A DNA stretch of 64,000 bases. It comes from a virus. Its lineage: Duplodnaviria; Heunggongvirae; Uroviricota; Caudoviricetes. Where the stretch lies: IMG/VR virus record IMGVR_UViG_3300032318_002198; one strand, 5' to 3'. How positions within the stretch are numbered: position 1 is the stretch's first letter; the number at the start of each line of letters is the position of its first letter. The notes under the pieces were generated by a model that worked only from the letters and a program-made list of their open reading frames with translations, was not told the DNA's origin and ran no database searches. Positions 11,262-62,734 of this stretch are shown in pieces. The translations under genes and the position numbers were made by a program.

Positions 11262-12071
11262 TTTTTTTATGTATATCAAATAACTAATTTAATTAATGGT
11301 AAAATTTATGTGGGAAAACATAAATCTACCAAACACCCGAATGAAAATGGATATTACGGATCGGGTAAGCAAATAAATTCTGCTATTAAGAAATATGGCA
11401 TTAATAATTTTAAAAAAGAAGTTTTATGCTATTGTTCTTCTTTGGAAGAAATGGCTGCTAAAGAAGCAGAAATAGTTACAGAAGATTTTGTCAAAAGAAA
11501 AGATACCTATAATATGCACAAGGGAGGGTTTGGTGGATTTGAACACATAAATCTAGATCCTAAAAAACGACTCGAAGTAAGCAATCAAGCATCAAAAAGA
11601 AATAAAGAATTAGGATTAGGTGGAACCCAACACTGGACAGACGAGAGTTGGAGAAAAGTTCGTGAAAAAAGTTGGACAGAATTAATTAGACAAGGTATAT
11701 TTGATCCAAATACTTGGGATAGTATGTCGAACGAAGAGAAAGAAAAGCGTCGAAAAAATATATCAAACAAAGTCTCTGGATCCAACAATGGTTCTTATGG
11801 AACTAAAATTTATATTGACGAGAATCATAACAGAGACTTACCGCCTGCAAATATTCTAAACAAACAACGATTCAAACCAGGCGAACAACCTAAAGGATGG
11901 ATTCCCGTTACTGAATGGAGAGATCGTAAAAAGAACAAAAAGGCAAATGCATATGGCAGACATTGGTATAATGATGGCCAAAAGAACTATTATTTGTATC
12001 CTACAGATGCTAAAATAATAGAACTACGTTTAGAAAAACGTAGATTAATAAATAAAAATATCATCGTATGA
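11259..12071 (+). CDS. GIY-YIG homing endonuclease
   Basis: FYVYQITNLINGKIYVGKH...YYGSG...E...YNMHKGG; NUMOD-like C-terminal repeats. Confidence 0.9.
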   Translation: MFFYVYQITNLINGKIYVGKHKSTKHPNENGYYGSGKQINSAIKKYGINNFKKEVLCYCSSLEEMAAKEAEIVTEDFVKRKDTYNMHKGGFGGFEHINLDPKKRLEVSNQASKRNKELGLGGTQHWTDESWRKVREKSWTELIRQGIFDPNTWDSMSNEEKEKRRKNISNKVSGSNNGSYGTKIYIDENHNRDLPPANILNKQRFKPGEQPKGWIPVTEWRDRKKNKKANAYGRHWYNDGQKNYYLYPTDAKIIELRLEKRRLINKNIIV

Positions 12072-12360
12072 AAGAAAGAGAAACGAGGTTCGGACGGGGC
12101 TAGCATATGCCCCCAGGTCCACCAGAGGTAGTTTTATTGGTGAATTTGCCTTAATATCGGAGTAGAAATACCGATAGATAGAATTACCTCTAATGGGCCT
12201 GAACAGATTCGACGGAACTACTAGTAACGGACTGGACGATGCGTTAGATGACGAACGTTAATCGCATAAAACTATAAACGCAAACGACAGCGTATTTGCT
12301 CTCGCAGCCTGAAAAACTAGCGAAGCCGGGGTAGGAAAGACCTTGTAATCAAACAAACCA
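12070..12360 (+). ncRNA. ssrA: circularly permuted (two-piece) tmRNA, tag ANDSVFALAA
   Basis: Acceptor piece GGAC-GGGGC/GCCCC-CAGGTCC-ACCA ends 12124; hairpin spacer; coding piece starts GGGCCTG at 12195 (pairs with CAGGTCC, G3:U70); tag GCA AAC GAC AGC GTA TTT GCT CTC GCA GCC TGA at 12280-12312. Confidence 0.92.
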
Positions 12361-12361
12361 G

Positions 12362-12386
12362 AAAGGCTACTTCGGTAGCCTTTTTT
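12362..12386 (+). terminator. rho-independent terminator
   Basis: AAAGGCTAC-TTCG-GTAGCCTTTTTT. Confidence 0.85.
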
Positions 12387-12424
12387 CTTGACTTCTATAT
12401 TTAAAGACAGTATTATTAATATAT

Positions 12425-12499
12425 GCGCTAGAAGCTGATTGGATAGCCAGAGCCTCTAAAACTCTTGATTAATGGGTTCGAATCCCATCTAGCGCACCA
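12425..12499 (+). tRNA. amber suppressor tRNA (anticodon CTA)
   Basis: GCGCTAG/CTAGCGC acceptor, AGAGC-CTCTAAA-ACTCT anticodon arm, TTCGAAT T-loop, ACCA. Confidence 0.75.
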
Positions 12500-43564: not shown

Positions 43565-43651
43565 GGGAGTTGCCCCGGTCGGCGGTCTGTAAAACCGTTC
43601 CTGAAAGATCGGAAGTCAAGGTGTGTGGAGCGTTACCATCAACTCCCACCA
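43565..43651 (+). tRNA. tRNA-Tyr(GTA)
   Basis: GGGAGTT/AACTCCC, GCGGT-CTGTAAA-ACCGT, long variable arm, CCA. Confidence 0.8.
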
Positions 43652-43657
43652 AATTAT

Positions 43658-43736
43658 CCGAGTATAGGCTAGTCAGGTTTAAGTCGTCTGCTTTGGGAGC
43701 AGAAAATCGGGAGTTCGAATCTCTCTACTCGGACCA
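43658..43736 (+). tRNA. tRNA-Pro(TGG)
   Basis: TCTGC-TTTGGGA-GCAGA, CCA. Confidence 0.92.
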
Positions 43737-43742
43737 TTTTTA

Positions 43743-43818
43743 GGAGCAGTAACATAGCGGCTAATGTATCTCCCTGTCTAGGAGAATATCGTGGGTTCGA
43801 GTCCCATCTGCTTCGCCA
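43743..43818 (+). tRNA. tRNA-Asp(GTC)
   Basis: TCTCC-CTGTCTA-GGAGA, CCA. Confidence 0.9.
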
Positions 43819-43824
43819 ATTTTT

Positions 43825-43889
43825 AGGATGCTTACAGCAAACTTTTATACATCAAACTTGTAATTTGAAACGTAAAAAAGCATCCTGTT
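43825..43889 (+). ncRNA. CAGCAA anticodon-stem-loop RNA, copy 1 (loop CT-TGT-AA)
   Basis: AGGATGCT/AGCATCCT closing stem, TACAGCAA, TCAAA/TTTGA hairpin. Confidence 0.7.
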
Positions 43890-43896
43890 GTATTAT

Positions 43897-43970
43897 AGAT
43901 CGCAAGCATTAAGGTGATGCAGTAGGCTCTTAACCTACAGAACACGGTCCAATACCGTGGCGTTCTACCA
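43897..43970 (+). tRNA. tRNA-Lys(CTT)
   Basis: GTAGG-CTCTTAA-CCTAC, CCA. Confidence 0.85.
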
Positions 43971-43978
43971 AATAATAA

Positions 43979-44054
43979 CTCGGATTGGGATAATAGGAAG
44001 TCCACTACGTTTGGGGCGTAGAAGGTGCAGGTTCGAAGCCTGTGTCCGAGACCC
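43979..44054 (+). tRNA. tRNA-Pro(TGG), second copy, ends ACCC
   Basis: CTCGGAT/GTCCGAG, CTACG-TTTGGGG-CGTAG. Confidence 0.8.
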
Positions 44055-44107
44055 TTGAGTCGATGTCAAGACTCGAACTTGTATAAATAAGAACACAGGA
44101 GGCATCT

Positions 44108-44758
44108 ATGTTCTATACAATATACAAGATAACAAATCAGATCAATGGCAAGTTCTATATAGGAAGTCATAAGACCAAAAATTTGAATGACGGATACATG
44201 GGCTCAGGTAAGTACTTAAAATACGCAAAAGAAAAATATGGTATAACAAATTTTACAAAAGAAATTTTGTTCATATTTGATACTCCTGAGCAAATGTATG
44301 CTAAAGAATCCGAAATAGTAAATGAAGAATTCCTCGCAACAGAAAATACCTATAATCTAAAAGTAGGAGGATTTGGCGGTTTTGATTACATTAACGCTAA
44401 TCCTGAAAAATATCTTACCGAAAAAAGATTATCTGCATTAATGCCACAGTCTGAAAGACTTAGGAGGTATAAAGAAAAATTAGATAATGATCCTAAATTT
44501 AGGGAGGAACAGGCGGGACGTATGAAAATCGCTCGAGAAAAATGGTCTCGTAAATACCCGCAAGGTGTTTGGTTAGGTAGAAAACATAGTAAAGAAACAT
44601 TGGCTAAATTAAAAAATTCTGCGAAAGGTAAAGGTCTCGGAGAAAAAAACTCACAATTTGGTACAATGTGGATTACAGACGGAATAAAAAATAAAAAAAT
44701 TAAAAAAGACAAGTTAGTTCCTGAAGGATGGAAATTAGGGCGTGTTTTAAAATCGTAA
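44108..44758 (+). CDS. GIY-YIG homing endonuclease with NUMOD3-like repeats
   Basis: FYTIYKITNQINGKFYIGSH..YMGSG; HSKETLAKL; TATAAATA and RBS-occluding hairpin at 44062-44106. Confidence 0.9.
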   Translation: MFYTIYKITNQINGKFYIGSHKTKNLNDGYMGSGKYLKYAKEKYGITNFTKEILFIFDTPEQMYAKESEIVNEEFLATENTYNLKVGGFGGFDYINANPEKYLTEKRLSALMPQSERLRRYKEKLDNDPKFREEQAGRMKIAREKWSRKYPQGVWLGRKHSKETLAKLKNSAKGKGLGEKNSQFGTMWITDGIKNKKIKKDKLVPEGWKLGRVLKS

Positions 44759-44761
44759 AAT

Positions 44762-44852
44762 TCACCGTAGGTATGGTGCCCCGGAACAGCGCGCAGCCGG
44801 TGAGGTTCGAGTCCTCTAGGTAAGTCAGGCTCGACTCCTGAACGGTGAGCCC
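44762..44852 (+). ncRNA. tRNA-like RNA with two T-arms
   Basis: TCACCGT/ACGGTGA acceptor-like stem; GAGG-TTCGAGT-CCTC and CAGG-CTCGACT-CCTG. Confidence 0.5.
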
Positions 44853-44938
44853 ATATTGAAGCACATTCTACCCATCTGTGGCACGGAACGGAGTCGTCAC
44901 AGAATGGAGAACAGACCTGTTTGAGTGTGTTTCAATAT
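44853..44938 (+). ncRNA. CACATT/AGTGTG stem RNA family, copy 3
   Basis: ATATTGAAGCACATT...AGTGTGTTTCAATAT. Confidence 0.6.
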
Positions 44939-44947
44939 GGCTAGACG

Positions 44948-45091
44948 ATAGTTTTGAGTCCCACCCAACCTAGCATGAGGGCTCACTTATGCGACTACAA
45001 CAGAGTGGTTGAACAGTGGTATCTGACTTGACTATCGAGACAATCCATCGAGGCCTACAATAGGGTAGGATAAGTGGGCTGCCAGAACTAT
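44948..45091 (+). ncRNA. unidentified structured RNA
   Basis: ATAGTTTT/AGAACTAT and GCTCACTTAT/ATAAGTGGGC nested stems. Confidence 0.4.
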
Positions 45092-45094
45092 ATT

Positions 45095-45129
45095 GGGGGA
45101 TAGGGACGCTGGGCGTTAACTGGTCTTGA
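45095..45129 (+). pseudogene. 5' half of tRNA-Ser(TGA), broken after the anticodon
   Basis: GGGGGATAGGGACGCTGGGCGTTAACTGGTCTTGA parallels 45741-45775. Confidence 0.85.
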
Positions 45130-45157
45130 CTTGTATAAATACAAGTAGGAGAAATAA

Positions 45158-45739
45158 ATGTATACTTGTAAATATTGTGGTAGAATTACAGAATCAGTAA
45201 ATTCAAATAGTAATCATCAGATTAGGTGTTCTTCAAATTCTGAAAGGTCTGTACAGAGGTCTGCAACCGGAAGACCTCTTGGTACTAAGGTCCTATCGTT
45301 AGTTGGAAAAAAATGGGGTGCAGCAATCAATGGTCATACTATCGAAACTAAACAGCGTTTATCAGTGATTGCAAAAGAACGGAATCTTGGAGGTTATGTA
45401 CAAGGGTCCGGAAGAGGCAAAAAGGGTTGGTACAAAGGATTCTTTTGTGATAGTAGTTGGGAACTTGCTTACGTTGTTTACTGTTTAGAACACAATATAG
45501 ACATTAAACGAAATACAGAGAAGCGACAATATATCTGGCAAGGAGTAGTTAAAAACTACCTACCAGATTTTATAGTTGAAGGAACTTTAACAGAAGTTAA
45601 AGGATATAAGACAGAACAATGGTTGGCAAAGTTAAAAGCAAATCCGGATGTTCGAGTTTTATACGAAAAAGACTTAGAACCTGTACTTGAATATGTTAAA
45701 GGCAAGTACGGAAAAGACTTCATAAATCTTTACGAATAA
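45158..45739 (+). CDS. PD-(D/E)XK (TnsA-like) homing endonuclease
   Basis: Zn-finger CKYC; DSSWEL...YLPDF...EVKGY. Confidence 0.75.
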   Translation: MYTCKYCGRITESVNSNSNHQIRCSSNSERSVQRSATGRPLGTKVLSLVGKKWGAAINGHTIETKQRLSVIAKERNLGGYVQGSGRGKKGWYKGFFCDSSWELAYVVYCLEHNIDIKRNTEKRQYIWQGVVKNYLPDFIVEGTLTEVKGYKTEQWLAKLKANPDVRVLYEKDLEPVLEYVKGKYGKDFINLYE

Positions 45740-45740
45740 C

Positions 45741-45827
45741 GGGGGATAGGGGGCTTGGAGCCTAACTGGTCTTGAAAACCAGCCCACTTAGGGATAGGTG
45801 ATTGTTCGATTCAATTATCCTCCGCCA
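45741..45827 (+). tRNA. tRNA-Ser(TGA)
   Basis: CTGGT-CTTGAAA-ACCAG, long variable arm, GCCA. Confidence 0.88.
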
Positions 45828-45886
45828 AATACTTTGACTTTACTGTTTAAGATAAGCATAATTATATTATACATATAGGAAAAATT

Positions 45887-46438
45887 ATGCTTGAAAATAA
45901 ACACAGTAAATTAATGAAAGAAGTAGTATGTAAATTCCATCCAGAATTTGTTAAAAGTGCCGATCTAAGAGATTATGGTACAAGGTACCCGGAAATTTTT
46001 AATATCGAACGTCTTGTAGAAGAAAGCCTAGCAGCAACTGGAGGCTATAATTTTGTTGACGAAGCTGGTAGAGATTTTGACGATACTGACAATAGCGATA
46101 GCAAAACAACCACTGTCGTGAACAATGACAAAGAGGGTTCAAGCAAAGTCTTCATTGTTAGCAATGTACAAACAAAGATAGGAAGCCTGAGAATTACATG
46201 CTTTAATCCTTTTAGTGATAAGGTAGATTACTTTTATGTACCGTCAGATCAGCGTGTTGTGCTGCAAGAAAATGATGGCAGTAAATACAGAGAACAGACA
46301 GGACATTGCAAGAGAATTAGAACGGTTTGGAGTGAGAAAACTGATTACTACAATAAGTTAGAAAACTTCAGAGTCGGAGATTTTGTTACTCTAGCAACAA
46401 GTAAAGATAAACAGAATATTGACACTCACCACGAATAA
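45887..46438 (+). CDS. hypothetical protein with own sigma70-like promoter
   Basis: ORF; TTGACT...CATAAT upstream. Confidence 0.65.
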   Translation: MLENKHSKLMKEVVCKFHPEFVKSADLRDYGTRYPEIFNIERLVEESLAATGGYNFVDEAGRDFDDTDNSDSKTTTVVNNDKEGSSKVFIVSNVQTKIGSLRITCFNPFSDKVDYFYVPSDQRVVLQENDGSKYREQTGHCKRIRTVWSEKTDYYNKLENFRVGDFVTLATSKDKQNIDTHHE

Positions 46439-46453
46439 ATATATAATATATAT

Positions 46454-46566
46454 TCGACCGTGAGTGGAATTGGCAGACCTCCGAAATTCCTATTATAGGG
46501 ATAAGGGACGGGATACACGACTTAGTCAAAGTATCTTTGTAGGTTCGAAACCTACCGGTCGGACCC
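46454..46566 (+). tRNA. tRNA-Leu-like RNA with aberrant enlarged anticodon arm (no readable anticodon)
   Basis: TCGACCG/CGGTCGG, GGAATTGGCAGAC D-loop, GTAGG-TTCGAAA-CCTAC T-arm, long variable arm. Confidence 0.5.
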
Positions 46567-46593
46567 ATTTAGATCGATAAGTAAATATATATT

Positions 46594-46683
46594 GGAACGG
46601 TCCCATAATGGTATTGGAGAGGATTGCTAATCCTTCGAGTTACGAAAGTAGCTTTCTGAGTTCGAGTCTCAGTCGTTCCGCCA
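46594..46683 (+). tRNA. tRNA-Ser(GCT)
   Basis: GAGGA-TTGCTAA-TCCTT, long variable arm, GCCA. Confidence 0.9.
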
Positions 46684-46691
46684 AACAATTT

Positions 46692-46722
46692 GCGGGTATG
46701 ATGTAAAGGTAACCTGAAACCT
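46692..46722 (+). pseudogene. 5' half of split tRNA-Gly
   Basis: GCGGGTA acceptor strand pairs with TACCCGC at 47262-47268. Confidence 0.85.
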
Positions 46723-46759
46723 ACGGTAAAGTATAAATACTAGTAGGAGATAGGTTACC

Positions 46760-47152
46760 ATGAAAACATATAACTGCGGACATTGCGGAATAGAATGTAA
46801 TTGGGCATATCAAGGCAACAATAAGTTTTGTAGTGTTCGATGTGCTCAAACATTTAGATCTTTAGAGCATAAGAAAAAATTCTTTTCTGGATTGTTAGAA
46901 AAACGAATAGATAGACCAACTGCTAGAAAATATCTAGCAGAGGCAAGAGGTTATAAGTGTGAGGTATGTAGCGTAAGTGATTGGCAAGGCAAGCCTATTA
47001 CTTTACACGTTGATCGTATAAACGGAGATCCGTCAAACGATCGCCCAGATAATTTAAGATTGATCTGCCCTAACTGTCACAGTCAAACCGAATTTCTTGG
47101 TGGTGCTAATAAAGGTAGAGGACGCGGTTCATTAGGAATCGCAAAGTATTAA
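46760..47152 (+). CDS. HNH endonuclease
   Basis: CEVC...LHVDRINGDPSND...NLRLICPNCHSQT; Arg at the usual first His position. Confidence 0.85.
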   Translation: MKTYNCGHCGIECNWAYQGNNKFCSVRCAQTFRSLEHKKKFFSGLLEKRIDRPTARKYLAEARGYKCEVCSVSDWQGKPITLHVDRINGDPSNDRPDNLRLICPNCHSQTEFLGGANKGRGRGSLGIAKY

Positions 47153-47154
47153 AT

Positions 47155-47230
47155 GCGGCTGTAGCTCAGTTGGTAGAGTACTTGCTTGCCAAGCAAGACG
47201 TCACGAGTTCGAACCTCGTTAGCCGCTCCA
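47155..47230 (+). tRNA. tRNA-Gly(GCC)
   Basis: CTTGC-TTGCCAA-GCAAG, TCCA. Confidence 0.95.
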
Positions 47231-47232
47231 AA

Positions 47233-47272
47233 CAAGGTGGGAGGAGGATTCACATTCTCCTTACCCGCTCCA
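47233..47272 (+). pseudogene. 3' half of split tRNA-Gly
   Basis: CAAGGT...T-arm-like GGAGGA/TTCTCC, TACCCGC-TCCA. Confidence 0.8.
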
Positions 47273-47278
47273 AATAAT

Positions 47279-47352
47279 GTCTCTCAAGCATTAAAGTGAT
47301 GTATCAGTCTCCAAAACTGAAGAACGCGGGGCGGTACCGTGGAGAGATGCCA
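47279..47352 (+). tRNA. tRNA-Trp(CCA)
   Basis: TCAGT-CTCCAAA-ACTGA, GCCA. Confidence 0.88.
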
Positions 47353-47368
47353 AAATTATAAATAGAAG

Positions 47369-47845
47369 ATGCGTATCAACGAAATATATTCACCTACTGT
47401 AGTATCCAAGTCAAAAATCCCAAATGCTGGGAATGGTCTGTTTGCAACGGAAAATATTCCAGCAGGAACATTGTTTGTTATAAACCCAATTATCACTATT
47501 AGTGAAAGTGATTGGAATAAGATTAAAGATACAGTTTTTGTAAAAAGAATGAGACTCAGTTGGACAAACAATGAAAAAGTTTTACCTGTTGGAAACATCG
47601 AGTATAAACTTTCTCCTGAAGATATTCCAGTATTTAGGTCAACTGATAGATTCAAAAATGGCGTATTTGTTAGTCCATTTTTACTTGTAAATCATAGTGA
47701 TGATCCAAATAGTGAACAAGTTATCGATGTTGCTCATAGAATGGTAGGATTAAGAGCCGTTAAGTTTATTGAGCAGGGTGAGGAAATAACAAAACGCTAC
47801 GACGGATTTGTTTCCAAGAAATCAGCATCGTTAGATTTTGATTAA
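47369..47845 (+). CDS. SET-domain lysine methyltransferase
   Basis: SKIPNAGNGLFA, VNHSDDPN, GEEITKRY. Confidence 0.85.
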   Translation: MRINEIYSPTVVSKSKIPNAGNGLFATENIPAGTLFVINPIITISESDWNKIKDTVFVKRMRLSWTNNEKVLPVGNIEYKLSPEDIPVFRSTDRFKNGVFVSPFLLVNHSDDPNSEQVIDVAHRMVGLRAVKFIEQGEEITKRYDGFVSKKSASLDFD

Positions 47846-47894
47846 AATAGATGGGCCAAAGGCTCGAGTCCTCGAAAGGACGCAAAAGTTTTTT

Positions 47895-47958
47895 AGGATG
47901 CTTACAGCAAACTTTATACATCAAACTGATAATTTGAAACGTAAAAAAGCATCCTGTT
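47895..47958 (+). ncRNA. CAGCAA anticodon-stem-loop RNA, copy 2 (loop CT-GAT-AA)
   Basis: Matches copy 1 except the anticodon triplet and one linker T. Confidence 0.7.
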
Positions 47959-47968
47959 GTATTTCTGT

Positions 47969-48043
47969 TGGGGGTAAATCGATTGGAGCAGATACTACTC
48001 TTTGAAAGTAGGTGACCAGGATCGTAACCTGGACCCCTAGCCC
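47969..48043 (+). tRNA. tRNA-Gln(TTG), ends GCCC
   Basis: CTACT-CTTTGAA-AGTAG. Confidence 0.82.
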
Positions 48044-48047
48044 GATA

Positions 48048-48914
48048 TTATTTAGAAATTAAATTTTCTACTTGAGATTTTATAAAATCTACTTCGCCAT
48101 AAAAAAGTGTGTTATTTTTAGAAATAGCATTTAATTTTTCTTGTGAAATTTTTATCTGATAAGAATTTTTTGGATCAAGATATACATTGTATTTTGTTAA
48201 ATAAAAATCCGGAAAATAGCGACGAAGTTTTCCGTTAGAATCAAACCATATAATATGTTTGGGTCTAACCCATTGTATTTGATGTGTGTCTAACCATTTT
48301 GCTATTTCTAATTCCCAGGAAGATTCTAATTTTAAAATCTCATTATTATGCAAATATTCGATAACAATCTTTCTATATGTTGAATTTTTTCTTTGACATT
48401 CAGGAGAACAAGTTTTTCTTAAAGTGTTTGCCCAAAACCAATTAGAACAACAAGCACAATAATTTCCGTATATTTTTGTGTAAGGACCATCTGCTCTAAA
48501 ATAGTTTCTTTGAGTTGATTTAACTTTCTTGATTTTAATAGGTTTAGGATCAATCCCTAATGTTTTAAAAAGAGTTAACCTTTGTTTTTCATAAACAGCA
48601 TAATTTCTATTTTTGTTATTAAAAGATGCATTGCAACTTCTACTACAAAACTTATTTTGCTTTTTATCATACGGCAACTGGACATTACAATTTTTACAAA
48701 GAGAACTATTTTTTAAATAATTTTCAATATTTTTTTCTAATACTTTTTTATTTTTAATTTTGTTATTATTTCTTGCATAATTATTTAAAGCAATAGTGCC
48801 TTTTTTCATATTTTTGATTTGTTCTTCATTGCCGTGAGAATGTAAGAAATGAGAAAAAATTCCTTTACTAGTTGTAAGTTTTTGACAGCAGATGCAGGAT
48901 GTAGGGTAAGTCAT
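48048..48914 (-). CDS. PD-(D/E)XK (TnsA-like) homing endonuclease, antisense
   Basis: Several Zn-finger CxxC motifs; LESSWEL...YFPDFYL...YLDPK. Confidence 0.75.
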   Translation of the reverse strand: MTYPTSCICCQKLTTSKGIFSHFLHSHGNEEQIKNMKKGTIALNNYARNNNKIKNKKVLEKNIENYLKNSSLCKNCNVQLPYDKKQNKFCSRSCNASFNNKNRNYAVYEKQRLTLFKTLGIDPKPIKIKKVKSTQRNYFRADGPYTKIYGNYCACCSNWFWANTLRKTCSPECQRKNSTYRKIVIEYLHNNEILKLESSWELEIAKWLDTHQIQWVRPKHIIWFDSNGKLRRYFPDFYLTKYNVYLDPKNSYQIKISQEKLNAISKNNTLFYGEVDFIKSQVENLISK

Positions 48915-48951
48915 AATATAATTAATGTTTATTAATATTTATCGTTTTAAT

Positions 48952-48975
48952 GTTCGATCCCTTCACCCTCTGCCA
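48952..48975 (+). pseudogene. orphan tRNA 3' fragment (T-loop plus acceptor strand)
   Basis: GTTCGATCCCTTC-ACCCTCT-GCCA. Confidence 0.7.
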
Positions 48976-48981
48976 AACAAT

Positions 48982-49058
48982 GTCCCGTTCGTCTAGATGG
49001 CTTAGGACCCCCGCCTTTCACGCGGACAACACCGGTTCGAATCCGGTACGGGATGCCA
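48982..49058 (+). tRNA. tRNA-Glu(TTC)
   Basis: CCGC-CTTTCAC-GCGG, GCCA. Confidence 0.92.
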
Positions 49059-49064
49059 ATTTTT

Positions 49065-49127
49065 AGGATGCTTCCAGCAAATTATGCAATTGCCTTCTAA
49101 GCAAACCAAGCAAAAAAGCATCCTGTT
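49065..49127 (+). ncRNA. CAGCAA anticodon-stem-loop RNA, copy 3 (loop CT-TCT-AA)
   Basis: AGGATGCT/AGCATCCT, TCCAGCAA, TTGC/GCAA hairpin. Confidence 0.65.
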
Positions 49128-49136
49128 TTATAATAT

Positions 49137-49212
49137 ACCCGCGTAACTCAGCGATTAGAGTAATCGGTTGATAACCGATAAGTCGTTGGTTTGAATCCAA
49201 CCGTGGGTACCA
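49137..49212 (+). tRNA. tRNA-Ile(GAT)
   Basis: ATCGG-TTGATAA-CCGAT, ACCA. Confidence 0.9.
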
Positions 49213-49234
49213 AGTTTTATCCCACTATAGCTCC

Positions 49235-49486
49235 AATTCAAAACAAAGAAGATTTTGCCCTGAACATAGACCAAAAAGTATTGCCCCAAAGACAACAATG
49301 TCAAAAGGTAGTCCGTCTGCGCTAAAGTTAGCTGCATATTGTAAAGCAAGAACAACAGAAGAACATCCGCAGTACGGAAAGCGGTGGATAAATGACGGAA
49401 CGACAAACAAAATGATACTAAAAGACCAAGTTGATGTATTCCTTGGCAATGGATGGAATAAAGGAAAAATACCCCGACTAAGCTAA
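49235..49486 (+). pseudogene. C-terminal remnant of a homing endonuclease running into tRNA-Phe
   Basis: HPQYGKRWINDGTTNKMI...GWNKGK matches the C-termini of the 44108 and 11259 endonucleases. Confidence 0.65.
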
Positions 49487-49548
49487 CCTGGTGGAAGCAT
49501 GTGCCTGAAGAGCACGGGGGCTTGGATCGTAACCAAGAGTCGGGACCA
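49473..49548 (+). tRNA. tRNA-Phe(GAA)
   Basis: TGTGC-CTGAAGA-GCACG, ACCA. Confidence 0.85.
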
Positions 49549-49554
49549 TATATT

Positions 49555-49629
49555 AGGACTATGGCGTAGAGGTAGCGCAGCGGACTTTTAATCCGTTAGG
49601 CCCGGGTTCGATCCCCGGTGGTCCTACCA
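49555..49629 (+). tRNA. tRNA-Lys(TTT)
   Basis: GCGGA-CTTTTAA-TCCGT, ACCA. Confidence 0.92.
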
Positions 49630-49647
49630 TATATAATAAATAAAGTT

Positions 49648-50106
49648 ATGAGAGTACGTGAATTTATTGTTGAATTAGCAGACAAGCCTGCTCAATTTGA
49701 ATGGGCATGTCGAACACCTGATGTATGTGTAGCAGAATCGCCGGAGTTGAATTTAACTTTATATATCAACAGGGGTATAAGTCGTGAGCAAAAAGACAAT
49801 GCGATATTTATAGATTTTACTGTAAACGATGAACACAAACTAACCGGCAAAGGTAATGCTATACAAATACTATCAACAGTGTTAGCTATGATGAGTGCAA
49901 TATTACCTAAATTTATAAAAAGAACCGATGATTTTGTCACGTTTGCTGCTGAAAAATCTGAGCACAGTAGAGTAAGTTTATATAGTAGAGCAGTTCCAAA
50001 AATTACAAGTATATTAAAAACAATAGATTATGCTTGGAAATATTATCCAACATATGAACCCAACAGTGGACTACAAAAATACACTTGGGAACGAGAGATG
50101 GGTTAA
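49648..50106 (+). CDS. hypothetical late protein, MRxREF family
   Basis: MRVREFIVE start after TAAATA. Confidence 0.65.
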   Translation: MRVREFIVELADKPAQFEWACRTPDVCVAESPELNLTLYINRGISREQKDNAIFIDFTVNDEHKLTGKGNAIQILSTVLAMMSAILPKFIKRTDDFVTFAAEKSEHSRVSLYSRAVPKITSILKTIDYAWKYYPTYEPNSGLQKYTWEREMG

Positions 50107-50114
50107 GACCTACC

Positions 50115-50193
50115 ATATAAAAACACATTCTAACTAATAAGGGTTGTAAACCTGGGTTAGCTAACAGCTAGCACCCTGAGTGTGTTTCTATAT
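50115..50193 (+). ncRNA. CACATT/AGTGTG stem RNA family, copy 4
   Basis: ATATAAAAACACATT...AGTGTGTTTCTATAT. Confidence 0.6.
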
Positions 50194-50270
50194 GGTCAAG
50201 TATCTTAAGAGGAAGTAGAGCCTCCCTCATAAGGAGGAATGTGGAGCTTCGAGTGCTCTCTTGACCACCA
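50194..50270 (+). tRNA. tRNA-Met(CAT), elongator type
   Basis: CCTCC-CTCATAA-GGAGG, ACCA. Confidence 0.8.
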
Positions 50271-50279
50271 ATCAAATAT

Positions 50280-50356
50280 GCCCCAGTAACCGAATTGGTA
50301 TAGGTACCAGCTTGAGGTGTTGGGTTTTGTGGGTTCGAGTCCCACCTGGGGCACCA
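50280..50356 (+). tRNA. tRNA-Leu(GAG), short variable arm
   Basis: CCAGC-TTGAGGT-GTTGG, ACCA. Confidence 0.85.
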
Positions 50357-50399
50357 AGACTGTTTAGGTGTGGCCTTAGTGTACTGTTGTGATAATAGG

Positions 50400-50474
50400 G
50401 GTGTCTATAGTGTAAAATTGGCACACAACTCTGTGAAAGTTGTAGTCTGAGTGAGACTTCTCAGTAGACACCCC
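50400..50474 (+). tRNA. tRNA-His(GTG)
   Basis: G-1, CAACT-CTGTGAA-AGTTG, C73. Confidence 0.8.
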
Positions 50475-50543
50475 TATTCTCATATTCGTCCACGAGCTTA
50501 ACTAATTCTAAATAAGTTATTGATGATTTAGTCAGTTTTTATT

Positions 50544-50665
50544 GCCGCTGTAGTGTAATGGTTAGCACCTTAAGAAGGCTATCCTGTTTTAGGATACATA
50601 CAGCAAAATTTTTCAATTCCTCTGTTAAAGGAAGAGACTGGGTTCGAATCCCAGCAGCGGCGCCA
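50544..50665 (+). tRNA. tRNA-Asn(GTT) with 47-nt insertion between D-arm and anticodon arm
   Basis: GCCGCTG/CAGCGGC, TTCCT-CTGTTAA-AGGAA; insert 50569-50615 contains ATCCTGTT-TT-AGGATACATACAGCAA. Confidence 0.75.
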
Positions 50666-50672
50666 AACATTT

Positions 50673-50776
50673 AGGATGATTTCAGCAAACAACTTATCGT
50701 CGCCAAAATCTGACGAGCCGACCCGTTTGGGGGTGTGTCGTGGGTTCGAGTCCCGGCTTAGACACAGCATCCTGTT
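50673..50776 (+). ncRNA. CAGCAA RNA family, long copy containing a T-arm
   Basis: AGGATG/CATCCT-GTT, TTCAGCAA, internal GGG-TTCGAGT-CCC. Confidence 0.6.
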
Positions 50777-50779
50777 AAT

Positions 50780-50855
50780 GTCTCCTTGGTGAAATTGGAT
50801 ATCATCAGAGTCTACGAAACTCTAGTTCTAGGTTCGATCCCTAGGGGAGACGCCA
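50780..50855 (+). tRNA. tRNA-Arg(ACG)
   Basis: AGAGT-CTACGAA-ACTCT. Confidence 0.92.
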
Positions 50856-50862
50856 ATATATT

Positions 50863-50939
50863 CGATCCTTAGCTCAATGGATTAGAGTGTCTGAATTCGA
50901 ATCAGAGGGTTGGGAGTTCGAGTCTCTCAGGATCGACCA
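50863..50939 (+). tRNA. tRNA-Arg(TCG)
   Basis: TCTGA-ATTCGAA-TCAGA. Confidence 0.85.
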
Positions 50940-50945
50940 ATCATA

Positions 50946-51021
50946 CTCTCTATAGTTCAACAGGATAGAACACATTCCTCCTAAGAATAAGGTCCCTGTT
51001 CGAGTCGGGGTAGAGAGACCA
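50946..51021 (+). tRNA. tRNA-Arg(CCT)
   Basis: ATTC-CTCCTAA-GAAT. Confidence 0.88.
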
Positions 51022-51030
51022 AGTAAGCGG

Positions 51031-51693
51031 CTAGGTTGAATTTGCTTTGAATTTTAGATATTCAGCTGCCGATCTAGGATCTTTCATTATATATGGTTCA
51101 GCTTCAGGCCATGGTCTTTTGAGAACAAGGAGAGCATACCTATATGCCATGTAAGAATCTTTCATTATAACCGGTTCAGCTTCAGGCCATGGTCTTTTGA
51201 GAACATCGAGGGCATAATAATATGCCCATTTAGGATCTTTCATTATATATGGTTCTGCTTCGGGCCAACCCTTGGGTTTGAACCTAAGGGCATACCTAAA
51301 TGCCCATGCCGGATCTTTCATTATAACTGGTTCAGCTTCAGGCCATGGTCTTCGGAGAATATAGTAGGCATAATAATATGCCCATTTAGGATCTTTCATT
51401 ATAACTGGTTCAGCTTCAGGCCATGGTCTTTTGAGAACATATAGAGCATAATAATATGCCCAGTCAGGATCTTTCATTATAACCGGTTCAGCTTCAGGCC
51501 ATGGTCTTTTGAGAACATATAGAGCATATTGATATGCCCAGTCAGGATCTTTCATTATAACCGGTTCTAATTGTTTTCTTAATTTAGGTTTTTTCCTAGC
51601 CAATCCGTATGCCAGTTCAGGTATACGATAATTGGCAGTATCATAACCAAACAATTGCTCTGGATTTGAATGTAACGTGTATAGGTTTTTCAT
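51031..51693 (-). CDS. 23-aa tandem-repeat protein, long allele (about 7 repeats, 69-bp DNA repeat)
   Basis: PVIMKDPDWAYxYALYVLKRPWPEAE repeated. Confidence 0.85.
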   Translation of the reverse strand: MKNLYTLHSNPEQLFGYDTANYRIPELAYGLARKKPKLRKQLEPVIMKDPDWAYQYALYVLKRPWPEAEPVIMKDPDWAYYYALYVLKRPWPEAEPVIMKDPKWAYYYAYYILRRPWPEAEPVIMKDPAWAFRYALRFKPKGWPEAEPYIMKDPKWAYYYALDVLKRPWPEAEPVIMKDSYMAYRYALLVLKRPWPEAEPYIMKDPRSAAEYLKFKANST

Positions 51694-53061: not shown

Positions 53062-53134
53062 TCTCCTATAAGTAAGTGGTATACTAACACTCTGGTACAG
53101 TGTAATCACAAGTTCGATTCTTGTTAGGAGAACC
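53062..53134 (+). tRNA. tRNA-Thr(GGT)
   Basis: ACACT-CTGGTAC-AGTGT. Confidence 0.82.
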
Positions 53135-53197: not shown

Positions 53198-53480
53198 TGC
53201 GTGGGAAGCTTAAGTGGTTATAAGCACTGGTCTCATTCTTAAGAGTGCATCAGATGTAGAAATACGCTGTATGAATGGTGTCAAATTCGGTGAAACCTAA
53301 AGTAGAAATACTATGGCAATGCCGAGCCAAGCCTCAGTAGAAATACTGTTGAAGGTGTAGAGACTAGACGGCACCCCCCTAAGGTAGAAATACTACGGAG
53401 AAGGCATAGTCCAAGGAGTAAGGAAACTTACACAAACTTGAAACCAGAGACAGCGGGTTCAAATCCCGCACCACGCACCA
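53198..53480 (+). tRNA. tRNA-CAT (probably Ile2) split by a group I intron; exons 53198-53236 and 53441-53480
   Basis: Joined exons give TGCGTGG/CCACGCA and CTGGT-CTCATAA-ACCAG. Confidence 0.88.
53237..53440 (+). ncRNA. group I self-splicing intron (IC3-like, 204 nt, no ORF)
   Basis: P1 CAT/GTG with U-G at the splice site; P AAATTCGGTGAA, Q AATGCCGAGCCAAG, R GTAGAGACTAGACGG, S GGCATAGTCC; terminal G; GAAA tetraloops. Confidence 0.9.
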
Positions 53481-53487
53481 ACTAATT

Positions 53488-54114
53488 ATGTCTAAATGGA
53501 ACTACACTGAATCTGTTCCTGACACACTCTACGTTGCCTGTTCTGGTGGTGTAGATAGTGTTGCCGCAGCAGCAATTCTCGGTGAATGGCGTGATGTAAC
53601 TCTGTTGCATTTTAGTCACACTGATCACGCTCATGTTCAAGAACTCGAAACAGTGAGTGAATTGGCATTTCAATTGAAAGTGCCTTTAATCACCAGTTAT
53701 CAAACTCAGGCTCAAACTACAGGGAATAAAGAAGCACAATGGCGCGATGCTAGATATGCGTGGTTTCATAGTTTAGATCTACCGGTAGCAACTGGCCATA
53801 CTCTCGAAGATTGCGTTGAGTGGTATCTAATGACTTGTTTGCGAGGACGTGGGGAGTATATGCCACATCGTAATCGTAATGTGTTTCGTCCATTCTTACT
53901 TACTGAAAAGTATCATTTGTACAAATATTGTAAACATAGAAATTTGACTTGGTGGGAAGATCCTGGAAATTATAGTTCAGAATTTAGCCTACGCAGTCGT
54001 GTTAGACAAAATTTGGTTCCGGCAGCACTTGAGTGTGAGCCAGGATTGAAAAATATGGTCAAGCGTAAATTAGTTGAGAAAATTAGTAGAGATAAAATGC
54101 TAGTTGACAATTAA
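53488..54114 (+). CDS. tilS: tRNA(Ile)-lysidine synthetase (N-terminal catalytic domain only)
   Basis: SGGVDS PP-loop, RDARY, TGHTLED, RPFL, WWEDPGN, RSRVRQ. Confidence 0.88.
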   Translation: MSKWNYTESVPDTLYVACSGGVDSVAAAAILGEWRDVTLLHFSHTDHAHVQELETVSELAFQLKVPLITSYQTQAQTTGNKEAQWRDARYAWFHSLDLPVATGHTLEDCVEWYLMTCLRGRGEYMPHRNRNVFRPFLLTEKYHLYKYCKHRNLTWWEDPGNYSSEFSLRSRVRQNLVPAALECEPGLKNMVKRKLVEKISRDKMLVDN

Positions 54115-56337: not shown

Positions 56338-56422
56338 TCCGCGGTACTCAAGTGGTACGAGGCCTGGCTGTTAACCAGAGACGCCGAAAGGCACGTAGGT
56401 TCGATCCCTACCCGCGGAGCCA
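56338..56422 (+). tRNA. tRNA-Asn(GTT) with long variable arm
   Basis: CTGG-CTGTTAA-CCAG; variable hairpin GCC-GAAA-GGC. Confidence 0.85.
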
Positions 56423-56448: not shown

Positions 56449-56520
56449 ACCCCCGCCAATGGATTGGCAGCAGGCCTTCTAAGCCAGTTTGTGTGGGTTC
56501 GAATCCTACCGGGGGTGCCA
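56449..56520 (+). tRNA. tRNA-Arg(TCT)
   Basis: GGC-CTTCTAA-GCC, GCCA. Confidence 0.85.
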
Positions 56521-62675: not shown

Positions 62676-62734
62676 AGGATCCATGCAGCAAATTAAAAAA
62701 TCAAATTGCAACTTTGAAAAAATCGGATCCTGTT
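62676..62734 (+). ncRNA. CAGCAA anticodon-stem-loop RNA (loop TT-GCA-AC)
   Basis: AGGATCC/GGATCCT compensated stem, GCAGCAA, TCAAA/TTTGA hairpin. Confidence 0.65.

What the first reader, a model, noticed from the sequence alone, without database searches (positions are those of the whole stretch)
50544..50665. tRNA-Asn carrying a circularly permuted CAGCAA module between D-arm and anticodon arm
Seen: a 47-nt insert has the family's 3' strand first (TATCCTG) and 5' strand second (AGGATA-CATACAGCAA), forming a hairpin. CAGCAA lies about 10 nt before the anticodon stem, the same spacing as in the free copies. The insert is far too short for group I/II and I see no bulge-helix-bulge. Inference: either the evolutionary link between tRNAs and the free anticodon RNAs, or a new small removable tRNA insertion. 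A second Asn tRNA at 56338 could cover decoding.
Basis: partly seen in the sequence, partly recalled or inferred. Interest (0 to 1): 0.8.

Follow-up and report, generated by a model that had tools for sequence, protein, structure and literature searches.

The report
Phage tRNA carrying a Ro60-type handle
This phage gene encodes a complete asparagine tRNA with an extra 47-base arm that is the same "handle" found on hundreds of small viral RNAs encoded beside a Ro60-like ring protein, so it is most likely a tRNA tethered to that protein and not an ordinary tRNA or a classical intron.

Summary
Window 50544-50665 is a cloverleaf tRNA-Asn(GUU) with an encoded CCA end. It carries a 47-nt insert between positions 26 and 27, made of a 6-bp hairpin (TATCCT/AGGATA) followed by CAGCAA.

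The insert is not a misassembly. Two independent metagenome contigs carry the same 122-nt gene, 120/122 identical, but with anticodon GUC. Another 32 distinct tRNAs in viral contigs have the same arm at the same site. So do the oddly long "tRNAs" annotated in the cultured vibriophage phi-pp2 (KVP40 type).

The same stem-plus-CAGCAA module, with open ends, closes mini anticodon hairpins and circularly permuted tRNAs. It clusters next to, and on the same strand as, DUF2828 genes. I show that DUF2828 folds like Ro60.

Best reading (0.55): a Y-RNA-like docking handle built into a tRNA, kept in the mature RNA, which displays a switchable anticodon on a Ro60-like particle. A cut-and-rejoin (intron-like) reading is not excluded (0.2).

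This scan had already found the handle family on other DNA many times. I found no paper describing the motif. The closest is a preprint guessing that some Felix O1-type "tRNAs" are Y RNAs. No RNA-level data were available.

The parts
50544..50665 (+). Whole gene: 122-nt tRNA-Asn(GUU) with an internal handle and an encoded CCA end
   Evidence: Rfam tRNA 42.9 bits. Model R1 113 bits. 120/122 identical copies in two independent metagenome contigs.
50544..50569 (+). 5' tRNA part: acceptor strand GCCGCTG, TA, D arm GTGT-AATGGTTA-GCAC, and C26
   Evidence: Sequence. Across 33 distinct relatives the acceptor stem is 100% paired, with compensatory changes in all 7 pairs.
50570..50579 (+). Linker L1 (TTAAGAAGGC), A-rich. 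AAGAA could pair with TTTTT of L2 to form a weak second helix.
   Evidence: Alignments A1/A2. A subset of relatives shows compensatory pairs here (GUAUA/UAUAC, GUAAA/UUUAC, GUAGA/UCUAC), read. For the window copy this is inferred only.
50580..50596 (+). Handle hairpin: TATCCT - GTTTT - AGGATA
   Evidence: Core pairs AUCCU/AGGAU are invariant or nearly so in 33 sequences, and the outer pair covaries (UA, AU, CG, GC). Relatives close the stem with a GNNA tetraloop in place of GUUUU.
50597..50606 (+). Unpaired handle word CATA-CAGCAA (CAGCAA at 50601-50606)
   Evidence: CAGCAA is invariant in all 25 aligned sequences. The same word follows the 5' stem strand in 279 distinct open-ended handle RNAs in the fetched loci.
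50607..50616 (+). Linker L2 (AATTTTTCAA)
   Evidence: Sequence. 9-11 nt in the window's free copies.
50617..50633 (+). Anticodon arm TTCCT-CTGTTAA-AGGAA, anticodon GTT at 50624-50626
   Evidence: Sequence. The nearest relative differs only by GTT to GTC here, plus one base in L1.
50634..50665 (+). Variable loop GAGA, T arm CTGGG-TTCGAAT-CCCAG, acceptor strand CAGCGGC, G73, CCA
   Evidence: T stem is 98.8% paired with compensatory changes. CCA is encoded in 29 of the 33 distinct sequences.
50673..50776 (+). Neighbouring open-ended handle RNA: AGGATG-ATTT-CAGCAA ... CATCCT-GTT. Its cargo is a hairpin, a variable-arm-like hairpin and a T-arm-like hairpin.
   Evidence: Similar units occur in L010, L049 and L080.
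43825..43889 (+). Free handle RNA with a Thr-like anticodon hairpin (loop CTTGTAA)
47895..47958 (+). Free handle RNA with an Ile-like anticodon hairpin (loop CTGATAA)
   Evidence: Weak Rfam RF01414 match of 23.8 bits.
49065..49127 (+). Free handle RNA with an Arg(UCU)-like hairpin (loop CTTCTAA)
62676..62734 (+). Free handle RNA with a Cys-like hairpin (loop TTGCAAC)

Best explanation
The gene encodes a tRNA-shaped RNA that carries, as a fifth arm between the D stem and the anticodon stem, the docking handle of a virus-specific class of Y-RNA-like RNAs. The handle is a short AUCCU/AGGAU stem next to an unpaired CAGCAA.

Shown here:
- The tRNA and the handle are both maintained by selection.
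- The same handle, with open ends, closes mini anticodon hairpins and circularly permuted tRNAs that join at the same 26/27 position.
- Handle RNAs are physically linked to DUF2828 genes.
- The DUF2828 protein folds like Ro60.

Inferred:
- The Ro60-like ring binds the stem-bulge handle, as Ro60 binds the stem-bulge-stem of Y RNAs.
- The arm stays in the mature RNA.
- The particle therefore displays a whole tRNA, CCA end included, whose anticodon is easily switched.

Most speculative step: the displayed tRNA or anticodon arm serves as bait, decoy or adaptor for host factors that read anticodon loops, such as tRNA-cleaving defence nucleases, possibly coupled to the RNA ligases these phages also encode.
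For: (1) Real and selected.
- 33 distinct handle-tRNAs are known. Acceptor stem 100% and T stem 98.8% paired, with compensatory changes. No shuffle out of 500 reaches the observed covariation.
- Independent contigs are 120/122 identical within a region that is only about 93% identical overall.

(2) One structure, two topologies.
- Open-handle units contain the order anticodon arm, variable loop, T arm, 3' acceptor strand, short loop, 5' acceptor strand, D arm. Their ends meet at 26/27 inside the handle (L005, L011, L086, L111, L114).

(3) Link to DUF2828.
- 9 of 10 large handle-bearing viral contigs encode DUF2828. The tenth has its handles at a contig end. None of 3 chance-hit control contigs does.
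- In 80 loci chosen only by DUF2828 homology there are 128 handles on the gene strand, 18 on the opposite strand and 6.6 in shuffles. 51 of 80 loci have a handle within 1 kb of the gene. Three closed-handle tRNAs also lie beside the gene.

(4) DUF2828 is Ro60-like.
- AlphaFold model pLDDT 93.6. The top 13 PDB matches are all Ro60/Rsr/phage Ro60, E 1e-9 to 1e-6. The profile search also ranks TROVE proteins first.

(5) Not needed for decoding.
- In 12 of 12 loci with at least 22 standard tRNAs, a standard tRNA with the same anticodon is present.
- Some handle-tRNAs carry serine anticodons (GCU, UGA) on class-I bodies, beside a normal class-II tRNA-Ser(GCU) in L146 and L151.

(6) The anticodon is the fast-changing part.
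- Window versus L366: GUU versus GUC at 99% body identity. L001 versus L206: GUC versus UCU at 97%.

(7) The handle works without exons to join.
- About 160 mini units hold only an anticodon-like hairpin, with Lys, Thr and Arg loops commonest.

(8) Precedent.
- YrlA Y RNAs have a tRNA-like domain on a Ro60-binding stem (PMC4201824).
- Phage phiLo Ro60 binds a stem-bulge-stem (PMC12135203).
- The Ro60-like gp130 of phage Bas63 lies upstream of the tRNA genes and counters the Ppl defence (PMC11482910).
Against:
- The handle word CAGCAA differs from the known Ro60 site (GNCGAAN0-1G / CGAA).
- I could not read the Ro60-like gene of this genome. It lies outside the window according to earlier notes, and there is no DUF2828 match inside the window.
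- The encoded CCA, a G73 that fits Asn identity and a perfect cloverleaf also fit a tRNA meant to be charged. That is easier to picture after removal of the arm.
- These phages encode RtcB and Rnl2-type ligases, some within about 3 kb of DUF2828, so cutting and rejoining is mechanistically possible.
- Redundancy with standard tRNAs is expected fairly often by chance in arrays of about 30 tRNAs.
Confidence: 0.55

Rival explanations
1. The 47 nt are a new kind of removable tRNA insert. A protein recognises the handle and cuts both linkers, and an RNA ligase (phage RtcB or Rnl2, or the host's) joins 26 to 27. The result is a normal 75-nt tRNA-Asn. The same machinery would circularise the permuted genes so that RNase P and 3' processing can open them at the acceptor end.
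For: - Normal-order and circularly permuted tRNAs share the same junction (26/27) and the same flanking module. This parallels the intron and leader-trailer logic of permuted tRNA genes in algae and archaea.
- In-silico excision gives a canonical tRNA.
- CCA and the acceptor stem are conserved.
- RtcB is present in 3 of 4 and Rnl2-type ligase in 4 of 4 complete handle-bearing genomes.
Against: - There is no bulge-helix-bulge, no group I or II core, and no known bacterial or phage endonuclease for such a site.
- The same handle closes about 160 mini RNAs that have nothing to splice.
- The handle sits beside an RNA-binding ring-protein gene, not beside a splicing endonuclease gene.
- The linkers next to positions 26 and 27 vary in length and sequence.
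- Handle-tRNAs with serine anticodons on class-I bodies would be useless as spliced tRNAs.
- An earlier report of this scan that proposed cutting and rejoining was later marked as partly fallen.
Confidence: 0.2
2. It is an ordinary decoding tRNA-Asn that tolerates an extra arm, much as class-II tRNAs tolerate a long variable arm. The handle then serves processing, stability or modification in cis, with no role for the Ro60-like protein.
For: - Intact cloverleaf, a 7-nt CU-GUU-AA loop, G73 and CCA.
- The only other tRNA-Asn in the window has an odd class-II-type body.
- All 25 aligned relatives encode CCA.
Against: - The handle is linked to DUF2828 genes in position and strand.
- The anticodon switches between near-identical copies without any change of identity elements.
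- Serine anticodons occur on class-I bodies.
- A 47-nt insert breaking the D-stem/anticodon-stem stack has no precedent in a working tRNA. This last point is my own knowledge, not tested here.
Confidence: 0.15
3. It is a dead tRNA gene into which a mobile or recombinogenic DNA element was inserted, that is, a pseudogene.
For: - The array is full of homing-endonuclease genes (GIY-YIG, HNH).
- GenBank marks one phi-pp2 homologue as a pseudogene.
Against: - 33 diverged copies keep every stem through compensatory changes.
- The copy in a phage about 93% identical overall is 98% identical.
- The insert site and architecture are constant.
Confidence: 0.05

Closest known systems
YrlA-type bacterial and phage Y RNAs bound by Ro60/Rsr (Rfam RF02553; Chen et al. 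2014, PMC4201824), and Yrl1/Yrl2 of Thermus phage phiLo (PMC12135203)
   Same: - Modular RNA: a protein-binding stem with an unpaired conserved word, plus a tRNA-like domain.
- Encoded next to a Ro60-fold protein gene.
- M. smegmatis YrlA is even cut by RNase P and receives CCA.
- RNA-repair ligases lie nearby.
   Different: - The word is CAGCAA, not GNCGAAN0-1G/CGAA.
- No Rfam YrlA match.
- The protein is DUF2828+DUF7788, not Pfam TROVE (0 of 5 genomes).
- The tRNA part here is a complete normal-order tRNA with its own anticodon arm and CCA, and the handle is an internal hairpin at 26/27.
- Many copies per genome lie scattered in tRNA arrays.
Ro60-like gp130 of Felix O1-type phage Bas63 (PhageMaP preprint, PMC11482910)
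   Same: - A phage protein with a Ro60-like fold directly upstream of the tRNA genes.
- The authors guess that some annotated tRNAs are Y RNAs.
- gp130 counters the Ppl defence system.
- My DUF2828 query finds Felix O1-type phages at about 42% identity.
   Different: - No RNA motif, handle or interrupted tRNA is described there.
- I did not check whether Bas63 itself has closed-handle tRNAs.
Over-long 'tRNAs' annotated in Vibrio phage phi-pp2 / KVP40 (JN849462.1: tRNA-Val 113 nt, tRNA-Asn 121 nt, tRNA-Phe 113 nt, tRNA-OTHER 123 nt, trnX pseudogene 120 nt)
   Same: - Same architecture: a tRNA with a hairpin plus a C-N-G-C-A-N word between the D arm and the anticodon arm.
- The phage also encodes DUF2828 (pp2_299).
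   Different: - Stem sequences differ (for example AUACU/AGUAU) and the word varies (CAGCAA, CUGCAA, CGGCAA, CCAGCAC).
- They are annotated only as tRNAs or pseudogenes, and the phi-pp2 paper does not comment on the inserts.
- The KVP40 genome paper was not available to me.
Dictyostelium Class I RNAs (Rfam RF01414; Kjellin et al. 2021, PMC7919456)
   Same: - Same layout as the free copies: a 6-7-bp terminal stem starting with G, then (C)UUACAGCAA, a variable middle, the 3' stem strand and CUGU.
- Size about 60 nt.
   Different: - Scores are below threshold (23.8 and 20.5 bits against 41.5).
- Giant-virus handle arrays gave no match.
- The tRNA-Asn itself is not matched.
- Class I RNAs are reported as restricted to dictyostelids and bind an RRM protein.
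- This is a resemblance only.
Disrupted tRNA genes of archaea and algae (non-canonical BHB introns, split and circularly permuted tRNA genes)
   Same: - Inserts outside position 37/38.
- Normal-order and permuted genes share one junction.
   Different: - No bulge-helix-bulge.
- The host is bacterial (permuted tmRNA, TilS-like gene, CCA-encoding tRNAs).
- The flanking module also occurs on RNAs that have no exons.

Membership tests
tRNA (Rfam RF00005) | Cloverleaf scoring above the gathering score | tested here: met
   42.9 bits against 29, spanning model positions 1-71 with a large insertion. Not listed with default filters or by ARAGORN.
tRNA (Rfam RF00005) | Continuous D-stem/anticodon-stem junction and a length of about 72-95 nt | tested here: not met
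   122 nt, with a 47-nt insert between positions 26 and 27.
tRNA (Rfam RF00005) | Aminoacylation and use in translation | not testable with these tools
YrlA-type Y RNA (RF02553) | Match to the family covariance model | tested here: not met
   No match at the gathering threshold or at E up to 5 in 43600-51100.
YrlA-type Y RNA (RF02553) | Ro60-binding helix with the GNCGAAN0-1G (CGAA) word | tested here: not met
   The unpaired word is CAGCAA. The motif definition comes from PMC4201824 and PMC12135203.
YrlA-type Y RNA (RF02553) | tRNA-like domain attached to the protein-binding stem | tested here: met
   A complete tRNA is attached through positions 26/27.
YrlA-type Y RNA (RF02553) | Encoded near a Ro60-family gene | tested here: inconclusive
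   For the handle family this is met: 51 of 80 DUF2828 loci have a handle within 1 kb on the same strand. For this window there is no DUF2828 inside it. Earlier notes place a Ro60-like gene about 6 kb beyond its end, which I could not read.
YrlA-type Y RNA (RF02553) | Bound by the Ro60-family protein | not testable with these tools
   Needs EMSA or RIP.
Dictyostelium Class I RNA (RF01414) | Score at or above the gathering score of 41.5 bits | tested here: not met
   Free copies score 23.8 and 20.5 bits. The tRNA-Asn is not matched. Giant-virus arrays give no match.
Group I / group II tRNA intron | Catalytic core of at least about 200 nt | tested here: not met
   The insert is 47 nt. Rfam finds the window's one group I intron elsewhere, at 53224-53433.
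Archaeal/eukaryal BHB tRNA intron | Bulge-helix-bulge (3-4-3) at the exon-intron borders | tested here: not met
   Both borders lie in unpaired linkers in the MFE and centroid folds and in the alignment.
Circularly permuted tRNA gene | 3' half encoded upstream of the 5' half | tested here: not met
   The window gene is in normal order. Permuted versions occur in relatives.

The most novel reading that the evidence does not exclude
Viruses of bacteria, and some giant viruses, run an undescribed Ro60-type ribonucleoprotein system. Its RNAs are built from one universal handle plus interchangeable tRNA cargo. Handle-tRNAs such as this one would be chargeable tRNAs physically tethered to the ring, with rapidly switching anticodons that bait or neutralise host anticodon-specific defence nucleases. 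Alternatively, they would feed an RtcB/Rnl2 repair or cut-and-rejoin pathway, which would amount to a new, protein-guided kind of tRNA gene interruption and permutation in bacteria.
Probability: 0.25. Interest if true: 0.85.

Novelty: new variant of a known kind. Interest (0 to 1): 0.74.

Why it matters
- Ro60/Y-RNA particles are known from animals and a few bacteria, but what their tRNA-like parts do is unsettled. Here a very large viral family (more than 6,000 DUF2828 clusters at 50% identity; 710 cultured phages) appears to use a different RNA handle. It attaches that handle to anticodon arms, to permuted tRNAs and, as in this gene, to a complete tRNA with a CCA end.
- This explains the odd over-long or "pseudo" tRNAs in phage annotations such as KVP40/phi-pp2.
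- It links phage tRNA arrays to RNA surveillance and counter-defence; Bas63 gp130 counters Ppl.
- It can be tested directly in cultured phages.
- If the arm turns out to be removed instead, it would be the first protein-dependent tRNA splicing or permutation system in a bacterial virus.

Tried and rejected
- The Pfam TROVE model on five handle-bearing jumbo-phage genomes gave 0 of 5. The partner family is DUF2828, a lead taken from earlier notes and then tested.
- A single-sequence AlphaFold run of DUF2828 was useless (pLDDT 37). It was redone with 124 sequences.
- blastn of handle-tRNAs against GenBank phages found nothing. One search used wrong coordinates and is void. The covariance model then found them in phi-pp2.
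- An exact 60-mer of this gene in IMG/VR gave none. The window's end in metagenome contigs gave none, so I could not reach the Ro60-like gene reported beyond the window.
- The closed-handle pattern in 596 Gb of cellular genomes gave 39 hits. All were chance matches inside coding sequence, with no model hit.
- RF01414 on giant-virus handle arrays gave no match.
- Self-cleaving ribozymes, a CRISPR-like repeat, integron attC, a MotA box, terminal inverted repeats of a mobile element, and CsrA or Hfq sites were considered from the sequence and dropped. Rfam finds none of the ribozymes. The covarying stem and strand bias point to RNA. The variable stem positions rule out a fixed DNA site.
- A general second helix between the two linkers was looked for. 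It is supported only in a subset of relatives and is weak in the window copy.
- The T4 Rnl1 family search is uninformative because nothing matched even in the control genomes.

Full report
**1. What is there**

Window 50544-50665 (+) reads as a complete cloverleaf:
- acceptor GCCGCTG/CAGCGGC
- D arm GTGT-AATGGTTA-GCAC
- anticodon arm TTCCT-CTGTTAA-AGGAA (anticodon GTT)
- variable loop GAGA
- T arm CTGGG-TTCGAAT-CCCAG
- G73 and an encoded CCA

Between position 26 (50569) and position 27 (50617) lie 47 extra bases. They are linker TTAAGAAGGC, hairpin TATCCT-GTTTT-AGGATA, CATA-CAGCAA, and linker AATTTTTCAA.

ARAGORN skips the gene. The Rfam tRNA model scores it at 42.9 bits, above its threshold of 29, once the filters are relaxed. 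RNAfold keeps all four tRNA arms, and the centroid shows the insert hairpin.

The surrounding 20 kb is a phage tRNA array. It holds 30 ARAGORN tRNAs, homing-endonuclease genes, a TilS-like gene, a group I intron and, further upstream, a permuted tmRNA.

Five free copies of the module occur at 43825, 47895, 49065, 50673 and 62676. Each has the form TTT-AGGATNN-NNN-CAGCAA-cargo-NNATCCT-GTT.

**2. Not chance, not misassembly**

A relaxed pattern of the closed module retrieves many viral contigs. In-silico excision followed by ARAGORN, and then a covariance model (R1), define 33 distinct tRNAs with the same arm at the same place. The window gene scores 113 bits. The best ordinary tRNA in the window scores 33.

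Across the 33 sequences:
- the acceptor stem is 100% paired, with compensatory changes in all seven pairs
- the T stem is 98.8% paired
- the handle stem is 94% paired, with three pairs invariant, two nearly invariant and an outer pair that covaries
- none of 500 shuffles reaches the observed covariation
- 29 of 33 encode CCA

Relatives close the handle with a GNNA tetraloop. The window uses GUUUU, which is exactly the two flanks of the open form (GUU and UU) fused together.

Two independent metagenome contigs (L366, L367) come from a phage about 93-95% identical across the array. They carry the same 122-nt gene with the same GUUUU loop, 120/122 identical.

**3. One structure in several topologies**

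The open-ended module is abundant in IMG/VR. The fetched loci contain 279 distinct units.

The cargo falls into size classes:
- About 160 units of 50-70 nt hold only a hairpin. The commonest have a 7-nt anticodon-type loop: CTTTTAA 26, CTTGTAA 14, CTTCTAA 9.
- Units of 100-120 nt hold tRNA bodies.

Several of the larger units are complete circularly permuted tRNAs. Their order is anticodon arm, variable loop, T arm, 3' acceptor strand, a 3-5-nt loop, 5' acceptor strand, D arm. Their ends meet inside the handle at exactly 26/27 (L005, L011, L086, L111, L114).

The window gene and these permuted genes are therefore topological isomers of one secondary structure. In one form the acceptor is open and the handle closed. 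In the other the handle is open and the acceptor closed.

**4. What travels with the handle**

Notes from earlier agents of this scan pointed to a Ro60-like protein. I tested this myself.

- Pfam TROVE is absent from five handle-bearing jumbo-phage genomes.
- DUF2828 (with DUF7788 and a weak vWA signal) is present in 9 of 10 large handle-bearing contigs. The tenth has its handles at the very end of an incomplete contig. None of three contigs that matched my pattern only by chance has it.
- In the reverse direction, I fetched 80 viral loci solely by DUF2828 homology. They hold 128 stem-plus-CAGCAA units on the gene's strand, 18 on the other strand and 6.6 in shuffles. 59 of 80 loci have at least one unit. 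51 of 80 have one within 1 kb, typically about 230 nt upstream. Three closed-handle tRNAs also lie beside the gene.
- The stems in these loci start AGGAT, AGGTT, AGAAT, AGAGT and so on, always with a complementary closing strand. What is kept is the pairing, not the sequence.
- With a 124-sequence alignment the protein models at pLDDT 93.6. Its top 13 PDB matches are all Ro60 proteins: Thermus phage phiLo, Xenopus, human and Deinococcus Rsr, with E 1e-9 to 1e-6 and TM up to 0.66. A sequence profile also ranks TROVE proteins first, though weakly.

So the handle is the signature of RNAs encoded with a Ro60-fold protein. Known Ro60 proteins bind a stem-bulge-stem in Y RNAs (PMC4201824, PMC12135203).

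**5. Is this tRNA a decoder, an intron-bearing precursor, or cargo?**

Points favouring cargo:
- In all 12 loci with at least 22 standard tRNAs, the handle-tRNA's anticodon is also carried by a standard tRNA. The window has a second tRNA-Asn at 56338.
- Some handle-tRNAs carry serine anticodons (GCU, UGA) on class-I bodies, next to a normal class-II tRNA-Ser(GCU). By established identity rules, which I did not test here, seryl-tRNA synthetase needs the long variable arm.
- The anticodon is the part that changes between near-identical copies. Window and L366 differ by GUU versus GUC at 99% body identity. L001 and L206 differ by GUC versus UCU at 97%. The window's free copies 1 and 2 likewise differ essentially in the anticodon.
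- The same handle closes RNAs that have nothing to splice.
- There is no group I or II core and no bulge-helix-bulge. The linkers at the borders vary.

Points favouring removal or real decoding:
- The cloverleaf, G73 and CCA are conserved.
- The normal-order/permuted duality resembles the logic of disrupted tRNA genes.
- RtcB is present in 3 of 4 and Rnl2-type ligase in 4 of 4 complete handle-bearing genomes. In two genomes the ligase lies about 3 kb from DUF2828.

No RNA-level data could be obtained. I therefore rate a retained docking arm at 0.55, cut-and-rejoin at 0.2, a plain decoder with a tolerated arm at 0.15, and a pseudogene at 0.05.

**6. Where else it occurs**

- Closed-handle tRNAs were not found in cellular genomes. 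All 39 pattern hits lie in coding sequence and none matches the model.
- They do occur in a cultured phage. Vibrio phage phi-pp2 (KVP40 species) encodes DUF2828 (pp2_299, 51% identical to my query). It also has four to five model hits. GenBank lists them as tRNA-Val (113 nt), tRNA-Asn (121 nt), tRNA-Phe (113 nt), tRNA-OTHER (123 nt) and the pseudogene trnX (120 nt).
- Reading those genes shows the same hairpin-plus-word insert after the D arm, with compensated stem changes and word variants CAGCAA, CUGCAA, CGGCAA and CCAGCAC. The phi-pp2 paper does not comment on them. The KVP40 paper was not available.
- DUF2828 homologues occur in 710 GenBank phages, including Felix O1-type, Listeria, Staphylococcus, Campylobacter and mycobacteriophages annotated "Ro-like".

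**7. Comparison with the literature**

- The nearest described system is Ro60 with YrlA-type Y RNAs, which have a tRNA-like domain on a Ro60-binding stem. M. smegmatis YrlA is cut by RNase P and gains CCA (PMC4201824). This RNA works like that on paper but fails membership. There is no RF02553 match, the word is different, and the protein family differs by sequence.
- A 2024 preprint notes that Bas63 gp130 looks like Ro60, sits upstream of the tRNA genes and counters the Ppl defence. It guesses that some "tRNAs" are Y RNAs (PMC11482910). It describes no motif.
- A jumbo-phage survey mentions TROVE proteins with a tRNA-like partner as an RNA-repair platform (PMC7824862).
- "DUF2828" appears in only five held papers, none about phages.
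- The free copies also resemble Dictyostelium Class I RNAs in layout: stem, CUUACAGCAA, variable middle, stem, CUGU. The scores are below threshold (PMC7919456), so I treat this as a lead only.

**8. Verdict**

The object is a handle-bearing tRNA, one member of a widespread and apparently unpublished class of viral Y-like RNAs.

This scan had already met the handle family on other DNA many times: 124 notes in at least 111 genomes, including a few handle-in-tRNA cases.

- the covariation-backed set of 33 handle-tRNAs
- the identity of the 26/27 junction in normal-order and permuted forms
- an independent twin with a switched anticodon
- the strand-specific DUF2828 linkage statistics
- the recognition of the same genes in cultured KVP40-type phages

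Noticed in passing
window 56338-56422: The second tRNA-Asn(GTT) has a class-II-type body: a 3-bp D stem and a long variable arm (GACGCCGAAAGGCACG), with G73 and CCA. It looks like a Tyr/Ser-type scaffold with an Asn anticodon. ARAGORN calls no tRNA-Tyr in the window.
   Followed up: partly
window 56449-56520: A tRNA-like gene with a UCU (Arg) anticodon loop, CCA and an odd 4-nt D loop. ARAGORN does not call it. Model R1 gives 20.5 bits.
   Followed up: no
window 12017-12499: A permuted (two-piece) tmRNA gene (104 bits for RF04321), immediately followed by a suppressor-type tRNA with anticodon CTA.
   Followed up: no
window 53224-53433: A group I intron (62 bits) lies between tRNA-Thr (53062-53134) and a TilS-like PP-loop ORF (53488-54114). 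I did not determine what it interrupts.
   Followed up: no
L366 3460-3581 and L367 1736-1857 (JACCDX011704894.1, JACCDW010440491.1): A related phage (about 93-95% identical array) has the same handle-tRNA with anticodon GUC in place of GUU. Downstream of it the window's open-handle RNA (50673-50776) is replaced by a different tRNA-like gene.
   Followed up: partly
L285 (JN849462.1 181002-183547), Vibrio phage phi-pp2: Five over-long annotated tRNAs (113-123 nt, one marked pseudogene) are closed-handle tRNAs. The phage also encodes DUF2828 (pp2_299). It is a culturable system for experiments.
   Followed up: partly
L128, L134, L135, L139, L144, L167, L168, L211, L224, L232 (giant-virus MAG contigs in IMG/VR): Head-to-tail arrays (period about 64-76 nt) of handle RNAs of the form AGGATAC-ATC-CAGCAA-hairpin-GTATCCT-GTAT. 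The handle is therefore not confined to phages.
   Followed up: no
L131, L132, L136, L143, L182, L186, L189, L193, L234, L092: Open handles enclosing much larger structured cargo (150-230 nt) of unknown kind.
   Followed up: no
G003 126.5-130.7 kb and G004 235.8-240.2 kb: An Rnl2-type RNA ligase gene lies about 3 kb from the DUF2828 gene in two complete jumbo-phage genomes. This recalls the cellular rsr-yrlBA-rtcBA arrangement.
   Followed up: no
window 51031-51693 (- strand ORF), repeats near 51229-51500: Tandem repeats of about 156 nt (…ATGCCCATTTAGGATCTTTCATTATA…) lie inside a minus-strand ORF. The repeats also occur in the related contigs L366/L367.
   Followed up: no
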